Shown here piece after piece: positions 1-64,000 of a DNA stretch of 64,000 nucleotides (the first letter of the stretch is position 1; every line of letters starts with the position of its first letter). Source of the stretch: Azolla caroliniana (lineage: Eukaryota; Plantae; Polypodiophyta); NCBI GenBank assembly GCA_043228905.1, contig JBHGNT010000029.1:186001-250000 (forward strand), written 5' to 3'. A model generated the notes under the pieces. It made no database searches and was not told where the DNA came from. It saw only the letters and a program-made list of their open reading frames with translations. The translations under genes were made by a program, and so were the position numbers.

Positions 1-3000
1 CGTATAAACTTTTTAATTTGCTCAAGGGCTCTACTCAACTCCCTCCTCAAATTTGGTAATTTCTTCATGTCTCTCGACCTGAGTGTCAAAATCTTGATTT
101 TTTAATTCCATATCATAGCTAGCGTTGTTAGCTTCGATTCGCATGTTTGAACACAGGAATCCGATATCACACGAGCGAGCTATGAACAATGTAATTTACT
201 CATTCGCCCTACTCAACTCCCTCCTCACATTTGCTAATTTCGTCATGTCTCTCAACCTGAGTTTCACAATTTTGATTTTTTAATTCCATATCATAGCTAG
301 CGTTGTTAGCTTCGATTCGCATGTTTGATCAGAGAAATCCGATATCACACGAGCGAGGTATTAACATTTTAATTTACTCCAGGGCTCTACTCAACTCCCT
401 CCTCAAATATGCTAATTTCTACATGTCTCTCGACCTGAGTTTCCAGATCTGGATTTTTTCATTCCATATCATAGCTAGCATTATTAGCTCCGATTTGCAT
501 GTTTGAACAGAGAAATCCGATATCACACGAGCGAGGTATGAAGAATTTAAACTACTCATTCGCCCTACTCAACTCCCTCCTCAAATTTGGTAATTTCGTC
601 ATGTCTCTCGACCTGAGTTTCAAAATCTTGATTTTTTTATTCCATATCATAGCGAGCGTTGTTAGTTCCGATTCCCATGTTTGAACACAGAAATCCGATA
701 TCACACGAGCCAGCTATGAACAATTTAATTTGCTCAAGGACTCTACTCAACTCCCTCCTCAAATTTGCTAATTTCTTCATGTCTCTCGACCGGAGTTTCC
801 AGATCTTGATTTTTTAATTCCATATCATAGCTAGAGTTGTTATCTTCGATTTGCATGATTGAACAGAGAAATCCGATATCACACGAGCGAGGTATGAACA
901 ATTTAATTTACTCATTCGCCCTACTGAACTCCCTCCTAAAATTTGGTAATTTCGTCATGTCTCTCGACCTGAGTTGTAAAATCTTGATTTTTTAATTCCA
1001 TATCATAGCTAGCGTTGTTAGCTTCGATTTGCATGTTTGAACACAGGAATCCGATATCACACGAGCGAGCCATGAACAATGTAATTTACTCATTCGCCCT
1101 AGTCAACTCCCACCTCAAATTTCCTAATTTCGTCATGTCTCTCGACCTGAGTTTCACAATCTTGATTTTTTAATTCCATATCATAGCTAGCATTGTTAGC
1201 TTCGATTCACATGTTGGAACAGAGAAATCCGATATCACACGACCGAGGTATTAACAATTTAATTTACTCATTCGCCCTACTCAACAACCTCCTCAAATTT
1301 GGTAATTTCTTGATGTCTCTCGACCTGAGTTTCCAGATCTGGATTTTTTCATTCCATATCATAGCTAGCATTGTTAGCTCCGATTTGCATGTTTGAACAG
1401 AGAAATCCGATATCACACGAGCGAGGTATGAACAATTTAATCTACTCATTCGCCCTACTCAACTCCCTCCTCAAATTTGGTAATTTCGTCATGTCTCTCC
1501 ACCTAAGTTTCAAAATCTTGATTTTTTTATTCCATATCATAGCGAGCGTTGTTATTTCCGATTCCCATGTTTTAACACAGAAATCCGATATCACATGAGC
1601 CAGGTATGAACAATTTAATTTGCTCAACGACTCTACTCAACTCCCTCCTCAAATTTGCTAATTTCTTCATTTCTCTCGACCTGAGTTTCCAGATCTTGAT
1701 TTTCTAATTCCATATCATAGCTAGAGTTGTTAGCTTCGATTTGCATGTTTGAACAGAGAAATTCGATATCATATGAGCGAGGTATGAACAATTTAATTTA
1801 CTCATTCGCCCTACTCAACTCCCTCCTCAAATTTGGTAATTTCTTCATGTCTCGCGACCTGAATTTCAAAATTTAGATTTTTCAATTCCATATCATAGCT
1901 AGCGTTGTTAGCTTCGATTCGCATGTTTGAACACATGAAATATCACACGAGCGAGGTATGAACATTTTAATTTACTTCGGGGCTCTACTCAACTCCCTCC
2001 TCAAATATGCTAATTTCTTCATGTCTCTCGACCTGAGTTTCCAGATCTGGATTTTTTCATTGCATATCATAGCTAGCGTTGTTAGCTCCGATTGCCATGT
2101 TTGAACACAGAAATCCGATATCACACGAGCGAGGTATGAAGAATTTAATCTACTCATTCGCCCTACTCAACTCCCTCCTCAAATTTGGTAATTTCGTCAT
2201 GTCTCTCGACCTGAGTTTCAAAATCTTGATTTTTTTATTCCATATCATAGCGAGCGTTGTTAGTTCCGATTCCCATGTTTGAACACAGAAATCCGATATC
2301 ACACGAGCCAGCTATGAACAATTTAATTTGCTCAAGGACTCTACTCAACTCCCTCCTCAAATTTGCTAATTTCTTCATGTCTCTCGACCGGAGTTTCCAG
2401 ATCTTGATTTTTTAATTCCATATCATAGCTAGAGTTGTTATCTTCGATTTGCATGATTGAACAGAGAAATCCGATATCACACGAGCGAGGTATGAACAAT
2501 TTAATTTACTCATTCGCCCTACTGAACTCCCTCCTCAAATTTGGTAATTTCGTCATGTCTCGCGACGTGAATTACAAAATTTAGATTTTTCAATTCCATA
2601 TCATAGCTAGCGTTGTTAGCTTCGATTCGCATGTTTGAACACATGAATCCGATATCACACGAGCGAGGTATGAAAATTTTAATTTACTCCGGGGCTCTAC
2701 TCAACTCCCTCCTCAAATATGCTAATTTCTTCATGTCTCTCGACCTAAGTTTCAAAATCTGGATTTTTTAATTCCATATCATAGCTAGCGTTGTTAGCTT
2801 CGAATGGCATGTTTGAACACAAAAATCATATATCACACGAGCGAGGTATGAACATTTTAATTTGCTCAAGGGCTCTACTCAACTCCCTCCTCAAATTTGC
2901 TAATTTCTTCATGTCTCTCGACCTGAGTTTCAAAATCTTGATTTTTTAATTCCATATCATAGCTCGCGTTGTTAGCTTCGATTTGCATGTTTGAACACAG

Positions 3001-6000
3001 GAATCCGATATCACACGAGCGAGGTATGAACATTTTAATTTGCTCAAGGACTCTACTCAAGTCCCTCCTCAAATTTGCTAATTTCTTCATGTCTCTCGAC
3101 CTGAGTTTCGAGATCTGGATTTTTTAATTCCATATCATCGCTAGCGTTGTTAGCTCCGATTCCCATGTTTGAACACAGAAATCCGATATCACACGAGCCA
3201 AGTATGAATATTTTAATTTGCTCAAGGACTCTACTCAACTTCCTCCTCAAATTTGGTAATTTGGTCATGTCCCTCGACCTGAGTTTCAAAATCTTGATTT
3301 TTTAATTCCATATCATAGATAGCGTTGTTAGTTCCGATTCCCATGTTTGAACACAGAAATCCGATATCACACGAGCCACGTATAAACTTTTTAATTTGCT
3401 CAAGGGCTCTACTCAACTCCCTCCTCAAATTTGGTAATTTCTTCATGTCTCTCGACCTGAGTGTCAAAATCTTGATTTTTTAATTCCATATCATAGCTAG
3501 CGTTGTTAGCTTCGATTCGCATGTTTGAACACAGGAATCCGATATCACACGAGCGAGCTATGAACAATGTAATTTACTCATTCGCCCTACTCAACTCCCT
3601 CCTCACATTTGCTAATTTCGTCATGTCTCTCAACCTGAGTTTCACAATTTTGATTTTTTAATTCCATATCATAGCTAGCGTTGTTAGCTTCGATTCGCAT
3701 GTTTGATCAGAGAAATCCGATATCACACGAGCGAGGTATTAACATTTTAATTTACTCCAGGGCTCTACTCAACTCCCTCCTCAAATATGCTAATTTCTAC
3801 ATGTCTCTCGACCTGAGTTTCCAGATCTGGATTTTTTCATTCCATATCATAGCTAGCATTATTAGCTCCGATTTGCATGTTTGAACAGAGAAATCCGATA
3901 TCACACGAGCGAGGTATGAAGAATTTAAACTACTCATTCGCCCTACTCAACTCCCTCCTCAAATTTGGTAATTTCGTCATGTCTCTCGACCTGAGTTTCA
4001 AAATCTTGATTTTTTTATTCCATATCATAGCGAGCGTTGTTAGTTCCGATTCCCATGTTTGAACACAGAAATCCGATATCACACGAGCCAGCTATGAACA
4101 ATTTAATTTGCTCAAGGACTCTACTCAACTCCCTCCTCAAATTTGCTAATTTCTTCATGTCTCTCGACCGGAGTTTCCAGATCTTGATTTTTTAATTCCA
4201 TATCATAGCTAGAGTTGTTATCTTCGATTTGCATGATTGAACAGAGAAATCCGATATCACACGAGCGAGGTATGAACAATTTAATTTACTCATTCGCCCT
4301 ACTGAACTCCCTCCTAAAATTTGGTAATTTCGTCATGTCTCTCGACCTGAGTTGTAAAATCTTGATTTTTTAATTCCATATCATAGCTAGCGTTGTTAGC
4401 TTCGATTTGCATGTTTGAACACAGGAATCCGATATCACACGAGCGAGCCATGAACAATGTAATTTACTCATTCGCCCTACTCAACTCCCACCTCAAATTT
4501 CCTAATTTCGTCATGTCTCTCGACCTGAGTTTCACAATCTTGATTTTTTAATTCCATATCATAGCTAGCATTGTTAGCTTCGATTCACATGTTGGAACAG
4601 AGAAATCCGATATCACACGACCGAGGTATTAACAATTTAATTTACTCATTCGCCCTACTCAACAACCTCCTCAAATTTGGTAATTTCTTGATGTCTCTCG
4701 ACCTGAGTTTCCAGATCTGGATTTTTTCATTCCATATCATAGCTAGCATTGTTAGCTCCGATTTGCATGTTTGAACAGAGAAATCCGATATCACACGAGC
4801 GAGGTATGAACAATTTAATCTACTCATTCGCCCTACTCAACTCCCTCCTCAAATTTGGTAATTTCGTCATGTCTCTCCACCTAAGTTTCAAAATCTTGAT
4901 TTTTTTATTCCATATCATAGCGAGCGTTGTTATTTCCGATTCCCATGTTTTAACACAGAAATCCGATATCACATGAGCCAGGTATGAACAATTTAATTTG
5001 CTCAACGACTCTACTCAACTCCCTCCTCAAATTTGCTAATTTCTTCATTTCTCTCGACCTGAGTTTCCAGATCTTGATTTTCTAATTCCATATCATAGCT
5101 AGAGTTGTTAGCTTCGATTTGCATGTTTGAACAGAGAAATTCGATATCATATGAGCGAGGTATGAACAATTTAATTTACTCATTCGCCCTACTCAACTCC
5201 CTCCTCAAATTTGGTAATTTCTTCATGTCTCGCGACCTGAATTTCAAAATTTAGATTTTTCAATTCCATATCATAGCTAGCGTTGTTAGCTTCGATTCGC
5301 ATGTTTGAACACATGAAATATCACACGAGCGAGGTATGAACATTTTAATTTACTTCGGGGCTCTACTCAACTCCCTCCTCAAATATGCTAATTTCTTCAT
5401 GTCTCTCGACCTGAGTTTCCAGATCTGGATTTTTTCATTGCATATCATAGCTAGCGTTGTTAGCTCCGATTGCCATGTTTGAACACAGAAATCCGATATC
5501 ACACGAGCGAGGTATGAAGAATTTAATCTACTCATTCGCCCTACTCAACTCCCTCCTCAAATTTGGTAATTTCGTCATGTCTCTCGACCTGAGTTTCAAA
5601 ATCTTGATTTTTTTATTCCATATCATAGCGAGCGTTGTTAGTTCCGATTCCCATGTTTGAACACAGAAATCCGATATCACACGAGCCAGCTATGAACAAT
5701 TTAATTTGCTCAAGGACTCTACTCAACTCCCTCCTCAAATTTGCTAATTTCTTCATGTCTCTCGACCGGAGTTTCCAGATCTTGATTTTTTAATTCCATA
5801 TCATAGCTAGAGTTGTTATCTTCGATTTGCATGATTGAACAGAGAAATCCGATATCACACGAGCGAGGTATGAACAATTTAATTTACTCATTCGCCCTAC
5901 TGAACTCCCTCCTCAAATTTGGTAATTTCGTCATGTCTCGCGACGTGAATTACAAAATTTAGATTTTTCAATTCCATATCATAGCTAGCGTTGTTAGCTT

Positions 6001-54694: not shown

Positions 54695-54935
54695 TATGCC
54701 TTTATTGCGGTGGACCAGGGCATATCGCGATAAACTGTCCCCATAGACCAAGAAGGCAGGTAAACCAAGTCGTTGTTAGTTCTGACTATACTAAACCCGA
54801 GTCTATTTCAGTAGAAATCTCTGAAATAGTCCTAATAGTACTAATAGTCATAATAGTCCTAATAGTACTAATAGTCCGAATCTCGCAAACAAATTTGATG
54901 TCCTTAGCCAATTAGAAGAAGAGTTAAACGACTAA
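54695..54935 (+). pseudogene. gag: gag C-terminal remnant (zinc knuckle plus Asn/Ser-rich tail)
   Basis: CLYCGGPGHIAINC (C-X2-C-X4-H-X4-C) at 54697-54738. Adding one A at 54824-54826 continues the frame as ENSPNSTNSHNSPNSTNSPNLANKFDVLSQLEEELND*, with TAA at 54933-54935. Confidence 0.85.
54825..54881 (+). repeat. 9-bp tandem repeat AATAGT(CCT/ACT/CAT/CCG) x6 in the gag tail
   Basis: aatagtcct aatagtact aatagtcat aatagtcct aatagtact aatagtccg aat. Confidence 0.9.
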
Positions 54936-56428
54936 GTCCAGCCAAAATAGGAGCCGTTTGGTTGGACAGCCCTAGATCTGTGCAGCCCATTAGTGGTTCC
55001 ATTCCCTCTAAGCAAGTTAGTGATGTGTTCGTAGCCCAAGTAGCAGTTATTACTAAAAGTACCCCTCCAGTACATACCTTAGCCCTTCTAGATTCCGGAG
55101 CTAATTCTTGCTTCATGGATAGGAATTTTGCCCGAGCTCATCAGATATCTCTCAGAAAGCTCCCATGTCCAGCCTCAGTAGTAGTCATTGATGGTCGTCC
55201 CATTGCTTCTGGTAATATCATAGAAGAGTCGGAACCCGTTAATATTGTCCTAGATAACTTAACATGTGTAGTATCATTTAATATTATTAGTATTCCAGAA
55301 CATCCCATAGTTTTAGGATTACCATGGTTCGAGTTACATAACCCAGACATAGATTGGAGGACAAGGGAAATCCGGTTGCGACAAACCCAAGGATCTACCC
55401 AGAAGGTTGCAACCATTTCGCTACGTCAGTTGCGTGAGGAAGGGCGCAAGGAGGAAATGTTTCTCTTCGCAATATCAGTACAACCCTCCAGCACCACCAA
55501 AGAGGAGTCCACCGTTCAACTTCCCGAGAAGTATCGTCAGTATGCTGATGTGTTCGATAAAGTACAAGCCAACACACTTCCTCATCATCGGCCGTACGAT
55601 TGCGCCATCGACTTACAACCGGGAAAAGAGCCGCCATGGGGGCCGATCTACAATTTGTCACCAACCGAGCTAGAAGTCCTTCGAGCCTATATAGAGGAGA
55701 ATTTGGAGAACGGTTTCATTCGGCATTCGAAATCTCCAGCCGGCGCACCCATTTTCTTCGTCAAGAAAAAAGATGGCTCGCTTCGACTCGTTGTAGATTA
55801 CCGTGGCTTGAATAAGGTCACAGTAAGAAATAGGTATGCTCTTCCCCTTATCTCAAGTCTTTTAGAACGGATCAACGGTGCCAGGTTCTTCACGAAGATC
55901 GACTTACGAGGAGCCTATAACCTCGTACGGATCCGACCAGGAGATGAATGGAAGACCGCGTTTCGCACCAGATATGGGCACTTCGAGTATACGGTCATGC
56001 CGTTCGGACTCACTAATGCGCCGGCAGTCTTCCAGCACATGGCGAATGATATATTTCGAGATCTCTTGGATGATTTTTTGATCATCTATTTGGATGATCT
56101 ACTGGTTTATTCAAAGACCCAAGAAGAACATGATTCTCATGTACTATTAGTACTAAAACGACTTCGAGAACATGGTCTGTATGCAAAGTTAGAGAAATGT
56201 AGTTTCGGGTGCAACCAAGTGGAATTTCTCGGCTATGTCATCTCCTCAGAAGGCATATCTATGGACCCAGCCAAGGTCAAAACGGTGATAGAATGGCACA
56301 CTCCGCGTTCGGTGCGGGATGTGCAATGCTTCCTAGGCTTTGCAAATTTTTACCGGAAGTTCATACAAAATTACTCAAAAATTGTGCTGCCTCTCACACA
56401 GCTCACGAGGAAGGGACAATCATTCATT
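54908..56428 (+). CDS. pol: pol, 5' part: aspartic protease and reverse transcriptase
   Basis: Frame open from 54908 (track ORF 54962-56494). LLDSGA protease motif with Asp at 55091; RT motifs KKKDGSLRLVVDYRGLN, KIDLRGAY, MPFGLTNAPAVFQ and YLDD (56087-56098). Homology switches frame at ~56428. Confidence 0.93.
54923..54975 (+). promoter_or_regulatory. Putative -1 programmed ribosomal frameshift signal (gag to pol)
   Basis: Heptamer G TTA AAC (54923-54929), 6-nt spacer, then an 11-bp stem GTCCAGCCAAA (54936-54946) / TTTGGTTGGAC (54957-54967) with one G-U pair. The pol frame is -1 relative to the restored gag tail. Confidence 0.75.
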
Positions 56429-58518
56429 GGTCTAAAGAGACGGACATGGCTTTCGAGAGTCTTAAGAAGGCGTTTACATCAGCTCCAATTTTAGGTCATG
56501 TGGATCCGGAAAAACCATTCATTATCGAAGCTGACGCATCGGATTTCGCATTGGGGAGCATTCTGTCACAACAGGGTAACGACGAGAAGCTACATCCTGT
56601 GGCTTTCCACTCCCGTAAGTTTGACGCCGCCGAAATCAACTACGAAATTCATGATAAAGAGCTATTAGCAATAGTTGATTCTTTTATGCAATGGAGGCAT
56701 TTCCTGGAGGGATCTCCTCATCAGGTCACTGTATTCAGTGACCACAAGAACCTTGCCTACTTTCAAGATGCTCGTGTACTGAATCGACGTCAAGCTCGGT
56801 GGGCCCACTTCCTCACACGCTTCGACTTCAAAATTACATATCGTCCGGGGAAGCACCAAGGGAAGGCAGATGCATTATCACGGCGTTCGTATCTAACACC
56901 ACGTCCCGGTGAGCCAGCTTTCGATAACCAGAAGCAAGTAATCTTGGGTCCAGCACGACTGCAAGCAGCACAGGTCTTTGACATGCCCGTGGATTCCGAC
57001 ATTACCAATACTATACGTGAGGACTTGAAGACTGACGCTTTCGCCCAAGCTATACTAGCACAAATTGACCCCTCTCGAGCATCATGTTCACAATCACAAT
57101 CACCAGGTACGGATTATCGGCAATTCAAATACTGTGATGGATTACTCTTCTTTAAAGAACTTTTGTATGTTCCTAATGGTTCTTGCCGCCTTCGAGTAGT
57201 ACAAAACTGCCATGACACATATACAGCAGGACATTTTGGTAGTACTAAAACATTAGATTTAGTACAACGATCATTCTGGTGGCCCCATATGCGACAATTT
57301 ATCGAAGATTTTGTTCGGACTTGCGATACATGCTGCAGAGCGAAAATGCCAAGACATCATCCATATGGTTTATTAGAACCATTACCAATTCCAAGCAAGC
57401 CATGGCAATCCATTGCTCTTGACTTCATTACAGATCTTCCAGTCTCTAAGGGATTCAGTGCGATTCTCACAGTGGTGGATCGATATACGAAGATGGCTCA
57501 TTTCTTACCATGTACTAAAGAAATATCTAGTGAAGACACCGCCGAAATTGTCATGCGGGAAGTATGTCGGCATCATGGACTCCCTGATAATATCATCAGC
57601 GATCGTGGACCCCAGTTTGTGTCAAAATTCTGGAAGCACCTTTTTAAAATGCTGAAGGTCACTTGTAACCTCTCCTCCGGCTACCACCCACAAACCGACG
57701 GTCAAGCCGAACGAACAAATCAAACACTGGAGCAGTATCTGCGGTGCTTTCTCAACTATCATCAGAATGACTGGGCAGATATTCTTCAGTTTGCCGAATT
57801 TGCCTATAATAACGCTATCCACGCATCGACTAAAGTCACGCCATTCTACGCTTATACGGGATATCATCCCCGGTGGTGTGTCCTTGAAACCCCAGAAGTG
57901 TCCACAAATCCTTGCGCGGAGGATCGTTTGGAGCGATTACGCAAGATACAAGCGGATTTATCTACTCAACTCCAGCAAGCTCAACAATCACACAAGGACT
58001 ACGCAGATCGTCATCGACTTCCATCCAGTTTTAACATTGGAGATCGGGTGTGGCTGCTACGACGACACATCAAGACTACTCGCCCATGTGAGAAGTTGGA
58101 TTATCGGCGATTAGGTCCTTTCCGTATTATCGGGAAGATTAATGATGTCGCTTTTCGTCTCGAGCTACCTCCGCAACTTCGGATACATCCGGTGTTTCAT
58201 AGTTCTCTCCTCGAACCCTATCACGAGAGCACTATCCCAGGACGTACTATACAACCACCACCTCCTATCGAGCTCGAAGATGGACCTGAGTATGAGGTCG
58301 CTGCCATCCTCGATTCCAAGATTGTTCGCAACAAGCTCTACTATCTAGTCGATTGGCTAGGATATAGTCCCAGCGAGCGTACTTGGGAACCGATCGAGAA
58401 TGTGACCAATGCTCGTGCTCTTCTAGAAGACTTCCATCGACGATATCCCGAGAAACCGGGTCCTCAATCCAAAACGACTCGTGGAACTCGTCGTTTTAAA
58501 GGGGGGATAGTGTCATAA
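56428..58518 (+). CDS. pol: pol, 3' part: RT connection, RNase H, integrase and chromodomain
   Basis: Track ORF 56209-58518, real from WSKETD. RNase H EADASDFALG and DKELLAIV...SDHKNL; integrase HHCC (57211-57333) and D(57421)-D(57601)-35-E(57709); GPF motif RLGPFRI. The stop codon lies 8 nt inside the LTR. Confidence 0.93.
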   Translation, partial: WSKETDMAFESLKKAFTSAPILGHVDPEKPFIIEADASDFALGSILSQQGNDEKLHPVAFHSRKFDAAEINYEIHDKELLAIVDSFMQWRHFLEGSPHQVTVFSDHKNLAYFQDARVLNRRQARWAHFLTRFDFKITYRPGKHQGKADALSRRSYLTPRPGEPAFDNQKQVILGPARLQAAQVFDMPVDSDITNTIREDLKTDAFAQAILAQIDPSRASCSQSQSPGTDYRQFKYCDGLLFFKELLYVPNGSCRLRVVQNCHDTYTAGHFGSTKTLDLVQRSFWWPHMRQFIEDFVRTCDTCCRAKMPRHHPYGLLEPLPIPSKPWQSIALDFITDLPVSKGFSAILTVVDRYTKMAHFLPCTKEISSEDTAEIVMREVCRHHGLPDNIISDRGPQFVSKFWKHLFKMLKVTCNLSSGYHPQTDGQAERTNQTLEQYLRCFLNYHQNDWADILQFAEFAYNNAIHASTKVTPFYAYTGYHPRWCVLETPEVSTNPCAEDRLERLRKIQADLSTQLQQAQQSHKDYADRHRLPSSFNIGDRVWLLRRHIKTTRPCEKLDYRRLGPFRIIGKINDVAFRLELPPQLRIHPVFHSSLLEPYHESTIPGRTIQPPPPIELEDGPEYEVAAILDSKIVRNKLYYLVDWLGYSPSERTWEPIENVTNARALLEDFHRRYPEKPGPQSKTTRGTRRFKGGIVS
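58291..58449 (+). other. Integrase C-terminal chromodomain (classical group I, aromatic cage retained)
   Basis: YEVAAILDSKIVRNKLYYLVDWLGYSPSERTWEPIENV matches the HP1-like pattern Y-x-V-x-x-I...YLVxWxGY...TWEP. Confidence 0.92.
58498..58510 (+). promoter_or_regulatory. Polypurine tract (plus-strand primer)
   Basis: AAAGGGGGGATAG directly abuts the TG at the LTR start. Confidence 0.9.
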
Positions 58519-58581
58519 CTAGACTCGAACCCATAACCTTTTGTTACACGGGTCGAGACTTTACCATTAGGTTATGAATTG
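58511..58581 (-). promoter_or_regulatory. tRNA-like unit / putative Pol III type-2 internal promoter (A-box plus B-box), antisense in LTR U3
   Basis: The minus strand reads CAATTCA TA ACCT AATGGTA AAGT C TCGAC CCGTGTA ACAAA AGGTT ATGGG TTCGAGT CTAGT TATGACA. A-box-like TAACCTAATGG (58574-58564) and B-box GGTTCGAGTC (58531-58522) sit at canonical tRNA spacing. The stems are degenerate, so it is not a functional tRNA. Confidence 0.6.
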
Positions 58582-58632
58582 TAATTTGAAGGATATTATT
58601 TTCATTTAGGTTTTATTGGGGAATTGATGTAT

Positions 58633-58682
58633 ATTCCAGATTTCTCTGGAACATGCTAGAAACTTCAGGAGTATTCCTGAAG
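58633..58682. promoter_or_regulatory. Putative heat-shock element array (10 alternating nTTCn/nGAAn pentamers)
   Basis: TTCcaGATttCTCtgGAAcaTGCtaGAAacTTCagGAGtaTTCctGAA: strict 5-bp phase, with 6 perfect and 4 single-mismatch triplets. Confidence 0.65.
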
Positions 58683-58686
58683 ACAC

Positions 58687-58694
58687 TATAAAAG
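58687..58694 (+). promoter_or_regulatory. LTR TATA box
   Basis: TATAAAAG within U3 of the LTR. Confidence 0.7.
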
Positions 58695-58800
58695 GAGGCG
58701 CAAGGCATTAGTTCGAACCAAATCGGTTCAACGCCAGTCTTAAGCCTTCTAACTACTGTTGTATATCTTCCTTCATATAATACATATATCATTCGCATCA

Positions 58801-58804
<4 letters not shown>

Positions 58805-58850
<46 letters not shown>
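58805..58850. repeat. (TC)23 microsatellite in the LTR
   Basis: Perfect TC dinucleotide run. Confidence 0.97.
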
Positions 58851-58854
<4 letters not shown>

Positions 58855-58888
58855 ACTCATTGCTTCTCTCAAAGTTCGACACCTCTCA

Positions 58889-58970
58889 TAGTACTAATCC
58901 TTCTCTGTCTTAGTACTATTCCCCAACAATAGTACTAATCCTTCTTTTAGTACTAATTCCTTCTCTGCCT
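58889..58970 (+). repeat. Four ~20-bp degenerate repeats with palindromic TAGTACTA core in LTR U5
   Basis: TAGTACTA at 58889, 58911, 58930 and 58948, three of them followed by AT(T)CCTTCT. Confidence 0.85.
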
Positions 58971-58987
58971 TAATAGAGTTCCTGACA

Positions 58988-61900
58988 CTCAACTCCCTTC
59001 TGAAATTTGGTAATTTCTTCATGTCTCTCGAACTGAATTTCAAAATTTAGATTTTTTAATTCCAGATCATAGCTAGCGTTGTTAGCTTGGATTCGCATGT
59101 TTGAACACAAAAATCCGATATCACACGAGCGAGGTATGAACAATTTAATTTACTCATTCGCCCTACTCAACTCCCTCCTCAAATTTGGTAATTTCGTCAT
59201 GTCTCTCGACCTGAGTTTTAAAATCTGAGATTTTTAATTCGATATCATAGCTAGCGTTGTTAGCTTCGATTTGCATGTTTGAACAGAGAAATCCGATATC
59301 ACACGAGCGAGGTATGAACAATTTAATTTACTCATTCGCCCTACTCAACTCCCTCCTCAAATTTGGTAATTTCTTCATGTCTCTCGACCTGAATTGCAAA
59401 ATTTAGATTTTGTAATTCCATATCATAGCTAGCGTTGTTAGCTTCGATTCGCATGTTTGAACAGAGAAATCCGATATCACACAAGCGAGGTATTAACATT
59501 TTAATTTACTCAAGGGCTCTACTCAACTCCCTCCTCAAATTTGCTAATTTCTTCATGTCTCTCGACCTGAGTTTCCAGATCTGGATTTTTTCATTCCATA
59601 TCATAGCTAGCGTTGTTAGCTCTGATTCCCATGTTTGAACACAGAAATCCGATATTACACGAGCCAGGTATGAACATTTTAATTTGCTCAAGGGCTCTAC
59701 TCAACTCCCTCCTCAAATTTGGTAATTTCTTCATGTCTCTCGACGTGAGTTTCAAAATCTTGATTTTTTAATTCCATATCATAGCTAGCGTTGTTAGCTT
59801 CGAATGGCATGTTTCAACACAAAAATCCGATATCACACGAGCGAGGTATGAACAATTTAATTTACTCATTCGCCCTACTCAACTCCCTCCTAAAATTTGG
59901 TAATTTCTTCATGTCTCTCGACCTGAGTTTCGAGATCTGGATTTTTTAATTCCATATCATAGCTAGAGTTGTTTGCTTCGATTTGCATGTTTGAACAGAG
60001 AAATCCGATATCACACGAGCGAGGTATGAACAATTTAATCTACTCATTCGCCCTACTCAACTCCCTCCTCAAATTTGGTAATTTCTTCATGTCTCTCGAC
60101 CTGAGTTTTAAAATCTTGATTTTTTTATTCCATATCATAGCTAGCGTTGTTAGTTCCGATTCCCATGTTTGAACAGAAAAATCCGATATCACACGAGCGA
60201 GGTATCAACAATTTAATTTACTCATTCGCCCTACTCAACTCCCTCCTAAAATTTGGTAATTTCTTCATGTCTCTCGACCTTAGTTTCGAGATCTCGATTT
60301 TTTAATTCTATATCATAGCTAGCGTTGTTAGCTTCGATTCGCATGTTTGAACACAGGAATCCGATATCACACGAGCGAGCTATAAACAATTTAATTTACT
60401 CATTCGCCCTACTCAACTCCCTCCTCAAATTTGGTAATTTCTTCATGTCTCTCCACCTGAATTTCACAATCTTGATTTTTTAATTCCATATCCCAGCTAG
60501 CATTGTTAGCTTCGAATGGCATGTTTGAACACAAAAATCCGATATTACACGAGCTAGGTCTAAACATTTTAATTTGCTCAAGGGCTCTACTCAACTCCCT
60601 CCTCAAATTTGGTAATTTCTTCATGTCTCTCGACCTGAGTTTCAAAATCTTGATTTTTTAATTCCATATCATAGCTAGCGTTGTTAGCTCCGATTCCCAT
60701 GTTTGAACACAAAAATCCGATATTACACGAGCCAGGTATGAACATTTTAATTTGCTCAAGAGCTCTACTCAACTCCCTCCTAAAATTTGGTAATTTCTTC
60801 ATGTCTCTCGACCTGAGTTTCAAAATCTTGATTTTTTAATTCCATATCCTAGCTAGCGTTGTTAGCTTCGATTTGCATGTTTGAACACAGGAATCCGATA
60901 TCACACGAGCGAAGTATGAACATTTTAATTTGCTCAAGGACTCTACTCAACTCCCTCCTCAAATTTGCTAATGTCTTCATGTCTCTCGACCTGAGTTTCG
61001 AGATCTGGATTTTTTAATTCCATATCATAGCTAGAGTTGTTAGCTTCGATTTGCATGTTTGAACAGAGAAATCCGATATCACACGAGCGAGGTATGAACA
61101 ATTTAATTTACTCATTCGCCCTACTCAACTCCCTCCTCAAATTTGGTAATTTCTTCATGTCTCTCCACCTGAATTTCACAATCTTGATTTTTTAATTCCA
61201 TATCCCAGCTAGCGTTGTTAGCTTCGAATGGCATGTTTGAACACAAAAATCCGATATTACACGAGCTAGGTCTAAACATTTTAATTTGCTCAAGGGCTCT
61301 ACTCAACTCCCTCCTCAAATTTGGTAATTTCTTCATGTCTCTCGACCTGAATTTCAAAATTTAGATTTTTTAAATCCATATCATAGCTAGCGTTGTTAGC
61401 TTCGATTCGCATGTTTGAACAGAGAAATCCGATATCACACAGGCGAGGTATTAACATTTTAATTTACTCAAGGGCTCTACTCAACTCCCTCCTCAAATTT
61501 GCTAATTTCTTCATGTCTCTCGACCTGAGTTTCCAGATCTAGATTTTTTCATTCCATATCATAGCTAGCGTTGTTAGCTCCGATTCCCATGTTTGAACAC
61601 AGAAATCCGATATCACACGAGCCACGTATAAACATTTTAATTTGCTCAAGCGCTCTACTCAACTCCCTCCTCAAATTTGGTAATATCTTCATGTCTTTCG
61701 ACCTGAGTTTCAAAATCTTGATTTTTTAATTCCATATCCTAGCTAGCGTTGTTAGCTTCGAATGGCATGCTTGACCACAAAAATCCGATATCACACGAGC
61801 GAGGTATGAACAATTTAATTTACTCATTCGCCATACTCAACTCCATCCTCAAATTTGGTAATTTCGTCATGTCTCCCGACCTGAGTTTTAAAATCTGAGT

Positions 61901-64000
61901 TTTTTAATTCCATATCATAGCTAGCGTTGTTAGCTTCGATTTGCATGTTTGAACAGAGAAATTCGATATCACACGAGCAAGGTATGAACAATTTAATTTA
62001 CTCATTCGCCCTACTCAACTCCCTCCTCAAATTTGGTTATTTCTTCATGTCTCTCGACCTGAATTTCAAAATTTAGATTTTTTAATTCCATATCATAGCT
62101 AGCGTTGTTAGCTTCGATTCGCATGTTTGAACAGAGAAATCCGATATCACACGAGCGAGCTATGAACAATTTAATTTACTCATTCGCCCTACTCAACTCC
62201 CTCCTCAAAGTTGCTAATTTCGTCATGTCTCTCCACCTGAGTTTCACAATCTTGATTTCTTAATTCCATATCATAGCTAGCGTTGTTAGCTTCGATTCGC
62301 ATGTTTGAACACAGAAATCCGATATCACACGAGCCAGGTATGAACATTTTAATTTGCTCAAGGGCTCTACTCAACTCCCTCCTAAAATTTGGTAATTTCT
62401 TCATGTCTCTCGACCTGAGTTTCAAAATCTTGATTTTTTACTTCCATATCATAGCTAGCGTTGTTAGCTTCAAATGGCATGTTTGAACACAAAAATCCGA
62501 TATCACACGAGCGAGGTATGAACAATTTAATTTACTCATTCGCCCTACTCAACTCCCTCCTAAAATTTGGTAATTTCTTCATGTCTCTCGACCTGAGTTT
62601 CGAGATCTAGATTTTTTAATTCCATATCATAGCTAGAGTTGTTAGCTTCGATTTGCATGTTTGAACAGAGAAATCCGATATCACACGAGTGCGGTATGAA
62701 GAATTTAATCTACTCATTCACCCTACTCAACCCCCTCCTCAAATTTGCTAATTTCTTCATGTCTCTCGACCTGAGTTTCCAGATCTGGATTTTGTCATTC
62801 CATATCATAGCTAGCGTTGTTAGCTCCGATTTGCATGTTTGAACACAGAAATCCGATATTACACGAGCTAGGTATGAACATTTTAATTTGCTCAAGGGCT
62901 CTACTCAACTCCCTCCTCAAATTTGGTAATTTCTTCATGTCTGTCGACCTGAGTTTCAAAATCTTGATTTTTTAATTCCATATCATAGCTAGCGTTGTTA
63001 GCTTTGAATGGCATGTTTGAACACAAAAATCCGATATCACACGAGCGAGGTATGAACAATTTAATTTACTCATTCGCCCTACTCAACTCCCTCCTAAAAT
63101 TTGGTAATTTCGTCATGTCGCTCGACCTGAGTTTCGAGATCTGGATTTTTTAATTCCATATCATAGCTAGAGTTGTTAGCTTCGATTTGCATGTTTGAAC
63201 AGAGAAATCCGATATCACACGAGCGAGGTATGAACAATTTAATTTACTCATTCGCCCTACTCAACTCCCTCCTCAAATTTGGTAATTTCTACATGTCTCT
63301 TGACCTGAATTTCAAAATTTAGATTTTGTAATTCCATATCATAGCTAGCGTTGTTAGCTTCGATTCGCATGTTTGAACAGAGAAATCCGATATCACACAA
63401 GCGAGGTATTAACATTTTAATTTACTCAAGGGCTCTACTCAACTCCCTCCTCAAATTTGCTAATTTCTTCATGTCTCTCGACCTGAGTTTCCAGATCTAG
63501 ATTTTTTCATTCCATATCATAGCTAGCGTTGTTAGCTCCGATTCCCATGTTTGAACACAGAAATCCGATATCACACGAGCCACGTATAAACATTTTAATT
63601 TGCTCAAGCGCTCTACTCAACTCCCTACTCAAATTTGGTAATATCTTCATGTCTTTCGACGGGAGTTTCAAAATCTTGATTTTTTAATTCCATATCCTAG
63701 GTAGCGTTGTTAGCTTCGAATGGCATGCTTGACCACAAAAATCCGATATCACACGAGCGAGGTATGAACAATTTAATTTACTCATTCGCCATACTCAACT
63801 CCATCCTCAAATTTGGTAATTTCGTCATGTCTCCCGACCTGAGTTTTAAAATCTGAGTTTTTTAATTCCATATCATAGCTAGCGTTGTTAGCTTCGATTT
63901 GCATGTTTGAACAGAGAAATTCGATATCACACGAGCAAGGTATGAACAATTTAATTTACTCATTCGCCCTACTCAACTCCCTCCTCAAATTTGGTTATTT
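58988..64000. repeat. 178-bp tandem satellite array, right arm, about 28 monomers
   Basis: Same monomer and orientation as the left arm. An 11-mer spacing recurs (private variant CATGCTTGACC at ~61770 and ~63728, offset 1958), and a 4-mer repeat gives ORFs at 60409 and 61121. Confidence 0.98.

What the first reader, a model, noticed from the sequence alone, without database searches (positions are those of the whole stretch)
58511..58581. Antisense tRNA-derived Pol III promoter forming the end of a chromovirus LTR
Seen: on the minus strand the first 71 bp of the LTR follow tRNA numbering. They show T8-A9, A14, G18-G19, a variable loop AGGTT (canonical AGGTC) and GGTTCGAGTC at 52-61, and position 72 falls on the terminal LTR base. 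The promoter boxes and spacing are kept while the cloverleaf pairing is largely lost. Known: A/B boxes bind TFIIIC, tDNA/B-boxes act as heterochromatin barriers at fission-yeast centromeres, and Cassandra TRIMs carry 5S-derived Pol III promoters in their LTRs. Inference: the element captured a tRNA. It may use it as an insulator shielding the Pol II promoter inside satellite chromatin, or as an outward promoter. From this 3' LTR it would give an ~110-nt RNA antisense to the PPT and integrase end (first T4 at 58474-58471); from a 5' LTR it would read into flanking satellite. Two more GTTCRANNC matches lie at 58711 and 58874. I cannot verify that this is undescribed.
Basis: partly seen in the sequence, partly recalled or inferred. 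Interest (0 to 1): 0.82.

Follow-up and report, generated by a model that had tools for sequence, protein, structure and literature searches.

The report
Outward tRNA promoter in retrotransposon LTRs
A branch of plant jumping genes keeps the two signal boxes of a tRNA-gene promoter, pointing outward, at the outer edge of its terminal repeat while the tRNA fold and most neighbouring sequence have decayed, so the boxes likely bind the host's RNA polymerase III factors and may shield the element's own promoter from silencing.

Summary
The first 71 bp of this 477-bp LTR, read on the minus strand, carry an A box, a variable-loop motif and a B box at tRNA spacing. A matrix built from 28 E. coli tRNAs gives 20.5 bits, the best site in the window (next 5.4) and above all 3000 LTR shuffles. 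Rfam and ARAGORN find no tRNA. Five related families (57-73% integrase identity) repeat the motif clearly, two weakly, on the same strand, at the same end, with G19-G53 spacing of 34-36. All lie in one well-supported clade. Cloverleaf pairing is at chance level (60 of 149 pairs). Not conserved: position 72 at the LTR edge, and the T4 terminator, so a ~110-nt antisense RNA is not a lineage trait. The match at 58711 is the self-priming R hairpin, not a B box. Best reading: a selected, outward-facing type-2 Pol III promoter that likely works through bound TFIIIC/TFIIIB as a chromatin barrier or anchor. Binding and function are untested; RNA data were inconclusive. Closest known: Helenus TRIMs (non-autonomous, sense orientation).

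The parts
58564..58574 (-). A box (tRNA 8-19: T8, R9, Y11, A14, G18, G19; T20 at 58563)
   Evidence: R9, Y11, A14, G18, G19 in 7 of 7 families with a GG at spacing (8 examined), T8 in 5 of 7
58535..58539 (-). variable-loop motif AGGTT (tRNA 44-48; AGGTC in four sister families)
58522..58531 (-). B box GGTTCGAGTC (tRNA 52-61)
   Evidence: 17.9 bits alone
58511..58581 (-). decayed tRNA-like segment; folds as one hairpin (z -3.3), not a cloverleaf, and only in this family
58582..58626 (-). AT-rich 45 nt upstream of tRNA position 1; predicted TFIIIB/TBP site (inferred)
   Evidence: A+T 0.76 here, 0.76-0.87 in 6 of 7 box LTRs, 0.67 in the degenerate L005; 0.36-0.67 at a similar offset in LTRs without boxes
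58511..58987 (+). 3' LTR, 477 bp, TGTCA...TGACA, followed directly by satellite
58498..58510 (+). polypurine tract
58687..58692 (+). TATA box of the predicted Pol II promoter, back to back with the Pol III boxes
   Evidence: a TATA 40-43 nt before the R motif in all 12 LTRs examined
58711..58737 (+). R-start hairpin and conserved R motif, the predicted self-primer region (explains the match at 58711)
   Evidence: the sequence after U5 is complementary to it over 9-12 nt in L002, L004, L005, L007, L035
58471..58474 (-). first T4 downstream of the boxes; next T4 only at 57649; position not conserved in relatives
54695..58518 (+). 5'-truncated gag-pol: zinc knuckle, protease, RT, RNase H, integrase, SH3, chromodomain; pol is broken by a frameshift near 56430
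58987..64000 (+). 178-bp satellite array (also 12-54694)

Best explanation
The outer 70 bp of this chromovirus LTR hold conserved tRNA-type A and B boxes on the antisense strand, which likely bind TFIIIC and TFIIIB and likely act as a chromatin barrier or nucleosome-free anchor between flanking host DNA and the element's Pol II promoter. Shown: the boxes, their strand, place and spacing are kept across families whose U3 has otherwise diverged; the fold, the distance to the LTR edge and the terminator are not kept. Inferred, step by step: (1) an ancestor of this clade took up a tRNA gene or tRNA-SINE head into U3 in reverse orientation; (2) selection kept what TFIIIC reads (boxes, spacing) and an AT-rich upstream stretch for TFIIIB, and let go of everything an RNA product would need; (3) in a 5' LTR or solo LTR the complex would sit at the border with host DNA, about 105-180 bp from the TATA box and pointing away from it, so Pol III would not collide with Pol II; (4) because the integrase chromodomain likely steers insertions to heterochromatin (this copy lies in satellite), such a complex would slow the spread of silencing into the promoter. 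Any outward RNA would be a by-product of variable length.
For: Matrix score 20.5 bits, 0 of 3000 shuffles. Same motif on the minus strand within 100 nt of the LTR start in L001/L002 (18.9), L003 (13.8), L004 (24.8), L006 (17.7), L035 (12.3), weakly L005 (5.1); each beat all 300 shuffles; 8 of 35 scored LTR starts, the other 27 scoring -22.0 to 5.5. The 4 best of 25 hits >=12 bits in 878,642 scanned bases are these LTR starts. Anchored on the B core alone, AGGTC matches 5/5 in 4 and 4/5 in 2 of 8 families and GGT lies at spacing 34-35 in 7 of 8 (chance 0.02-0.12 each); E. coli class I tRNAs have 33-35. Boxes occur only inside one 99/97 clade (8 of its 12 rows, 0 of 19 outside). U3 between the boxes and the TATA box is no more alike than shuffles in 17 of 21 family pairs. 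Canonical stems pair in 60 of 149 positions, chance 0.38-0.44. AT-rich upstream stretch fits plant tRNA genes (PMC7544208, passages). A/B boxes bind TFIIIC, which places TFIIIB upstream; insulator activity of tRNA genes is cited there (PMC11346459, passages).
Against: No binding, chromatin or transcription data. Four rows of the same clade (L007, L009, L011, L045) lack the boxes, so they are dispensable, and L005 and L013 are degenerate. The A box is weak against the E. coli matrix (-2.6 to 5.7 bits) and G10 is mostly lost. Plant tRNA genes in heterochromatin are themselves methylated and silenced (PMC7544208, passages), and methylation impairs TFIIIC binding (PMC11346459, passage); this B box contains a CpG. 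A kept A box and AT-rich upstream stretch point to full initiation, which fits an RNA-making role as well; TFIIIC-only sites need no A box (recalled). The variable loop 44-48 is kept although it lies outside the classical B box, which this model does not fully explain. The matrix is bacterial; no host tRNA set was available.
Confidence: 0.45

Rival explanations
1. The boxes are a working Pol III promoter whose RNA matters: from the 3' LTR it makes RNA antisense to the PPT, chromodomain and integrase end that dampens the element (self-limiting copy number or small-RNA source).
For: A box, spacing and AT-rich upstream stretch are all kept. In this copy a read-through of the single T4 would run to 57649, about 930 nt. 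In 2 of 3 poly(A) runs of a related organism, first mates on + outnumber those on - over 58297-58501, while the LTR bins are mostly -. Foamy viruses make Pol III RNAs from A/B boxes in their LTR (PMC3993851, passages).
Against: No conserved terminator: first T4 inside the LTR in L003 and L004 (the RNA would never reach the coding region), outside in the window, L006 and L013, none within 250 nt in L001, L005, L035. No conserved fold. The RNA signal is 2-4 reads deep, reversed in the third run, from another organism, with unknown strand protocol (28, 29 and 35 reads laid of about 12 million records each).
Confidence: 0.22
2. Selection acts on the sense genomic RNA, whose U3 start pairs with the T-arm and D-arm of a host tRNA, as in the bipartite primer site of Ty3.
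For: The orientation is that of a tRNA complement. In Ty3 the T-psi-C and D arms of tRNA-iMet pair with U3 (PMC5371799, passage). It would explain conservation of 44-48. A tRNA-like antisense stretch in HIV-1 U3-R is recalled, not retrieved.
Against: Relatives self-prime: the sequence after U5 is complementary to R over 9-12 nt in 5 of 12 LTRs examined (the other 7 gave no such site) and does not start with TGG; Tcn1 elements are reported as self-priming (PMC6317226, passages). Positions 49-52, between the two conserved blocks, vary freely (pairwise identity 0.25-0.46), which contiguous pairing with one tRNA would not allow. Pairing does not need tRNA-gene spacing or an AT-rich upstream stretch.
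Confidence: 0.1
3. The boxes serve as a landing pad or decoy for other elements that target Pol III genes.
For: Ty3-type targeting of TFIIIB sites is established (recalled).
Against: Not tested here: no genome is held. It would more likely be a consequence of the promoter than the reason it is kept.
Confidence: 0.08
4. A neutral relic of an old tRNA or SINE insertion, or a chance match helped by a family-specific hairpin.
For: No Rfam or ARAGORN match; the 71 nt fold as a hairpin in which the B box is one arm (z -3.3); 4 of 12 clade members lack the boxes; chance hits of 12-16.5 bits occur in coding DNA (19 of 25 hits).
Against: Neutral decay would not spare the same invariant positions and a 34-36 spacing in families at 57-73% protein identity while the spacer and most of U3 are randomised. 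The hairpin is absent from the other 7 families (z -0.3 to 1.1).
Confidence: 0.06

Closest known systems
Helenus TRIMs (TRIMp3; Kojima 2024, PMC10886601; read: abstract, introduction, methods, results, discussion = parts 1-4 of 6, and two supplement passages)
   Same: tRNA-derived sequence in an LTR, conservation centred on boxes A and B, mostly no functional tRNA; Pol III activity likewise inferred from conservation.
   Different: Helenus is non-autonomous (311-1263 bp) and tRNA-primed, and in the four LTRs visible in the supplement passages the tRNA-like part reads in the sense direction, where it can drive the element's own RNA. Here the element is a gag-pol chromovirus with a Pol II TATA box, self-priming relatives, and antisense boxes that cannot make genomic RNA. 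The paper notes that 'not a few' Repbase LTRs resemble part of a tRNA but analyses only TRIMs.
Cassandra and Ajax TRIMs (as described in PMC10886601)
   Same: Pol III promoter from a small-RNA gene inside an LTR.
   Different: 5S-derived, non-autonomous; Cassandra's promoter makes the element's own RNA.
Foamy-virus LTR Pol III miRNA cassettes (PMC3993851, passages)
   Same: A/B-box Pol III promoters inside the LTR of an autonomous retroelement that uses Pol II for its genome.
   Different: There the RNA hairpin and terminator are the product; here neither fold nor terminator is conserved, and the boxes keep tRNA spacing and the variable loop.
Ty3 bipartite primer site (PMC5371799, passages)
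   Same: Sequence in U3 complementary to tRNA T and D arms.
   Different: Ty3 is tRNA-primed; relatives of this element are predicted to self-prime, and only promoter-type invariants are kept.
Tcn1 chromoviruses of non-seed plants (PMC2864245, PMC6317226; passages)
   Same: Gypsy domain order with C-terminal chromodomain, no tRNA primer site, predicted self-priming, LTR of about 450 bp.
   Different: Neither paper contains the term 'polymerase III', and PMC6317226 has no 'tRNA-like'; no LTR boxes are described in the passages seen.
tDNA / TFIIIC chromatin barriers (cited in PMC11346459; fission-yeast details recalled)
   Same: Box-bound TFIIIC at a border with heterochromatin.
   Different: Those are host tRNA genes or B-box arrays with measured activity; here the site travels in a retrotransposon and activity is untested.

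Membership tests
Type-2 (tRNA-type) Pol III promoter | B box (G53 T54 T55 C56 R57 A58 N N C61) | tested here: met
   58531-58522
Type-2 (tRNA-type) Pol III promoter | A box upstream at tRNA spacing | tested here: met
   T8, R9, Y11, A14, G18, G19 present, G10 absent in this copy; G19-G53 = 34; consensus letters recalled and as given in PMC10886601
Type-2 (tRNA-type) Pol III promoter | AT-rich/TATA-like and CAA upstream elements of plant tRNA genes | tested here: inconclusive
   A+T 0.76-0.87 in 6 of 7; a CAA lies at -7 to -5 here but is not general
Type-2 (tRNA-type) Pol III promoter | TFIIIC/TFIIIB/Pol III occupancy and transcription | not testable with these tools
   only poly(A) runs of a relative were available
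tRNA gene | cloverleaf pairing and covariance-model match | tested here: not met
Helenus / TRIMp3 | tRNA-derived sequence in the LTR with conserved boxes | tested here: met
Helenus / TRIMp3 | non-autonomous, short, no protein coding | tested here: not met
   gag-pol domains over 3.8 kb
Helenus / TRIMp3 | promoter oriented to transcribe the element | tested here: not met
   antisense here (plus-strand best -16.5); sense in the Helenus LTRs seen
Ty3/gypsy chromovirus | PR-RT-RH-IN order with C-terminal chromodomain | tested here: met
Tcn1 clade | self-priming site instead of a tRNA primer site | tested here: met
   in relatives L002, L004, L005, L007, L035; this copy lacks its 5' end
Tcn1 clade | chromodomain with aromatic cage | tested here: met
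   Y...W..Y present; cage positions recalled
Tcn1 clade | phylogenetic placement with named Tcn1 references | not tested
   the tree holds no named reference

The most novel reading that the evidence does not exclude
A clade of autonomous, heterochromatin-seeking plant chromoviruses carries its own tDNA-derived insulator: an outward-facing Pol III promoter at the LTR edge that holds its Pol II promoter open inside satellite chromatin, and that every solo LTR leaves behind as a mobile barrier.
Probability: 0.35. Interest if true: 0.82.

Novelty: new variant of a known kind. Interest (0 to 1): 0.62.

Why it matters
How elements that insert into silent chromatin stay transcribable is an open question. 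A conserved TFIIIC site at the LTR edge gives a direct, one-base-testable answer, and the clade holds natural pairs with and without the boxes. The family is very abundant in several related organisms (2097-3201 contigs laid per run), so it could also seed many Pol III sites across the host genome. tRNA-derived boxes in LTRs are known from non-autonomous TRIMs; an antisense copy kept across families of an autonomous element was not found in my 10 searches, which cover open-access full text only; Repbase reports and subscription papers were not searched.

Tried and rejected
ARAGORN on the window (0 genes) and on 79 loci (0); Rfam at E<=10 (no tRNA); these E-values are multiplied by 4227 families, so they are strict for a decayed tRNA. 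No own genome is held; metagenome records could not be searched with RF00005. No covariance model of my own was built. Viral contigs gave no relative. No RNA holder was listed; three poly(A) runs of a related organism gave 28, 29 and 35 reads, too few and the wrong library type for short Pol III RNA; X17 is probably DNA. Within-family variation: of the 40 variant rows shown (84 not shown), 8 fall in 58511-58581 and none on the 21 positions T8, A9, A14, G18-T20, 44-48, 52-61; by my arithmetic (50/71)^8 is about 0.06, weak support only. Rejected: the family hairpin as the conserved feature; position 72 at the LTR edge; fixed terminator; extra B boxes at 58711 and 58874. An origin by read-through of a tRNA primer at a U5-U3 circle joint fits the orientation but is weakened because relatives self-prime and the distance to the edge varies; left open. 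The recalled paper on a tRNA-like stretch in HIV-1 U3-R could not be found or read. Of 79 loci only 34 gave an LTR start by my PPT+TG rule (35 starts); L013 was added by eye and scores under 12 bits; L002, L025, L072 (near-copies), L031 (short) and L037 were left out of the tree. Supplements of PMC6317226 and PMC2864245 were not opened and may list LTR features that bear on novelty.
Full report
Setting. The window is a 178-bp satellite array interrupted at 54695-58987 by one Ty3/gypsy element. It has a zinc knuckle, protease, RT, RNase H, integrase, SH3 and a C-terminal chromodomain. It is cut off at the 5' end inside gag, and pol is broken by a frameshift near 56430. Only the 3' LTR is present: 58511-58987, TGTCA...TGACA, after a polypurine tract at 58498-58510. 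No host genome is held.

The observation. ARAGORN and Rfam see no tRNA. To test the boxes without the fold I built a matrix from an independent set: 29 distinct E. coli tRNA genes, 28 distinct box sets, scoring positions 8-15, 18-19, 44-48 and 52-61 with G19-G53 spacing free between 31 and 38. The site scores 20.5 bits. It is the best site on either strand of the window (next 5.4). Of 3000 dinucleotide shuffles of the LTR, both strands scanned, none reach it; without the variable loop none reach 17.8; the B box alone is reached by 1. Real E. coli class I tRNAs score 13.4-39.0.

Conservation across families. An alignment of 15 integrase-chromodomain proteins fetched 79 loci from metagenome contigs. 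My PPT+TG rule found 35 LTR starts in 34 of them; 34 were long enough to score, plus the window. Eight of these 35 beat all 300 shuffles on the minus strand: the window (20.5), L001 and L002 (one family, 18.9), L003 (13.8), L004 (24.8), L006 (17.7), L035 (12.3) and, weakly, L005 (5.1). Spacing was 34-36 in all (E. coli class I: 33-35). The other 27 scored -22.0 to 5.5; three had p between 0.02 and 0.05, and plus-strand scores reached 12.3 in L024/L025 and 11.0 in L032. In a blind scan of all 79 loci (878,642 bases, both strands) 25 sites reached 12 bits; the top four and two more are these LTR starts, and the other 19 (12.1-16.5 bits) lie elsewhere. L013 shows a B core and a GGT at spacing 34 by eye but scores under 12.

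What is kept and what is lost. Anchored on the B core alone, the variable loop matches AGGTC at 5/5 in 4 and 4/5 in 2 of 8 families, and GGT sits at spacing 34-35 in 7 of 8. In those 7, R9, Y11, A14, G18 and G19 are present in all and T8 in 5. The 22 columns between D loop and variable loop, and positions 49-52, have pairwise identity mostly 0.14-0.54, against 0.54-1.0 at 44-48 and 53-61 (53-58 were the anchor). U3 between the boxes and the TATA box aligns no better than shuffles in 17 of 21 pairs; blastn of the window LTR hits four loci of three families (L001/L002, L003, L004) at E<0.02, and only at the R motif. Canonical stem pairs form in 60 of 149 positions, at the chance rate of 0.38-0.44. 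The hairpin that the window's 71 nt form (z -3.3) is not seen in the other seven (z -0.3 to 1.1). The 45 nt upstream of position 1 are 76-87% A+T in 6 of 7 box LTRs and 67% in L005; the next 100 nt are 46-70%; LTRs without boxes have 36-67% at a similar offset. Plant tRNA genes have such AT-rich upstream stretches (PMC7544208, passages).

Tree. In a 31-row integrase-chromodomain tree the boxes fall only in one clade of 12 rows (99/97): 8 with boxes (L005 and L013 weak), 4 without (L007, L009, L011, L045); none of 19 outside rows has them. The label needs 2 changes against 7.2 for shuffles. Two gains or one gain with two losses both fit; the shared place, strand and AGGTC favour one gain (inference). 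Kin share labels, so this shows clustering, not function.

Within the family. Contigs of four DNA runs laid at 80% likeness show a high-copy family. Of the 40 variant rows shown (84 not shown), 8 lie in the 71 bp. None touches T8, A9, A14, G18-T20, 44-48 or 52-61; one keeps Y11 and one turns A10 into the consensus G. Loose ends show a sister subfamily with 5 more bases before the B box, the B core intact and an A box closer to the consensus. This is weak support on its own.

Position 61 lies 6-49 nt from the LTR edge, so position 72 on the edge is not a lineage trait. The first T4 is inside the LTR in two families, outside in three and absent within 250 nt in three, so no common antisense RNA is predicted. 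The match at 58711 has no A box and is one arm of the R-start hairpin; in L002, L004, L005, L007 and L035 the sequence after U5 is complementary to this region over 9-12 nt (5 of 12 LTRs examined), the self-priming layout reported for Tcn1 (PMC6317226, passages). The match at 58874 scores -17.3.

Expression. No RNA holder was listed. Three poly(A) runs of a related organism gave 28, 29 and 35 reads. LTR bins are mostly first-mate minus; over 58297-58501 two runs lean the other way and one does not, at 2-4 reads. I draw nothing from this.

Mechanism. What survives is what a DNA-binding factor reads: box letters, spacing, an AT-rich upstream stretch. What an RNA product would need (fold, end, length) does not survive. 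A and B boxes bind TFIIIC, which places TFIIIB upstream (PMC11346459, passages). So I infer an outward-facing type-2 promoter, back to back with the Pol II TATA box 105-177 bp inside. My estimate is 0.9 that the boxes are tRNA-derived and selected, 0.75 that they bind TFIIIC, and 0.45 that the main use is a barrier or anchor for the Pol II promoter. Against it: four clade members do without, plant tRNA genes in heterochromatin are silenced by methylation, and the kept A box fits real transcription too.

Relation to what is known. Helenus TRIMs carry tRNA-derived boxes in their LTRs (PMC10886601, parts 1-4 of 6 read), but they are non-autonomous and, in the four LTRs seen in the supplement passages, sense-oriented. 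That paper says 'not a few' Repbase LTRs resemble part of a tRNA without analysing autonomous ones, so some prior notice is possible. Foamy viruses have working A/B-box cassettes in their LTR (PMC3993851, passages). This element is not a Helenus (two defining features fail) but its boxes would work like a TRIMp3 promoter turned outward. Ten searches of the open-access library found no description of an antisense tRNA-type promoter conserved across an autonomous chromovirus clade; for most listed papers I saw only the listing and the start of the abstract.

Verdict. Real, selected, and probably undescribed in this form; function inferred. New variant of a known kind, interest 0.62.

Noticed in passing
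window 1940-2239 and 5318-5617; 553-852, 2151-2450, 3931-4230: The 178-bp satellite has a higher-order repeat: blocks 3378 bp apart (19 monomers, one of 174 bp) are 99-100% identical, while neighbouring monomers are about 88-90% alike.
   Followed up: no
window 58711-58737; L002, L004, L005, L006, L007, L035 LTRs: A hairpin at the predicted R start followed by a conserved AAC(A/G)CCAG-type motif 40-43 nt after the TATA box; the sequence after U5 is complementary to the hairpin's 3' arm in five loci and changes with it. A clear self-priming signature for a group whose priming one paper left open (PMC2864245).
   Followed up: partly
window 54694/54695 and 58987/58988: The element starts inside the gag zinc knuckle, and the satellite resumes on the right at a different phase from where it stops on the left: the 5' part of the element and some satellite were likely deleted together. 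No target-site duplication can be read.
   Followed up: no
window 54825-54881 and 58889-58960: A 9-bp repeat (AATAGTCCT/AATAGTACT) lies at the gag-pol junction, and similar TAGTACTAAT units recur four times in U5.
   Followed up: no
L007, L009, L011, L045: Clade members without boxes; in L009, L011 and L045 the start of U3 is filled with short tandem repeats instead. Natural controls for a test of function.
   Followed up: partly
L001:3041 onward: The LTR is followed directly by sequence that looks like Copia reverse transcriptase by eye (recalled motif), suggesting nesting in another element.
   Followed up: no
L028, L029, L031, L034, L039, L079 (minus strand, integrase end): One family scores 14.7-16.4 bits on the tRNA-box matrix inside the coding region just before the chromodomain; likely chance in GC-rich coding DNA of near-copies, not examined.
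   Followed up: no
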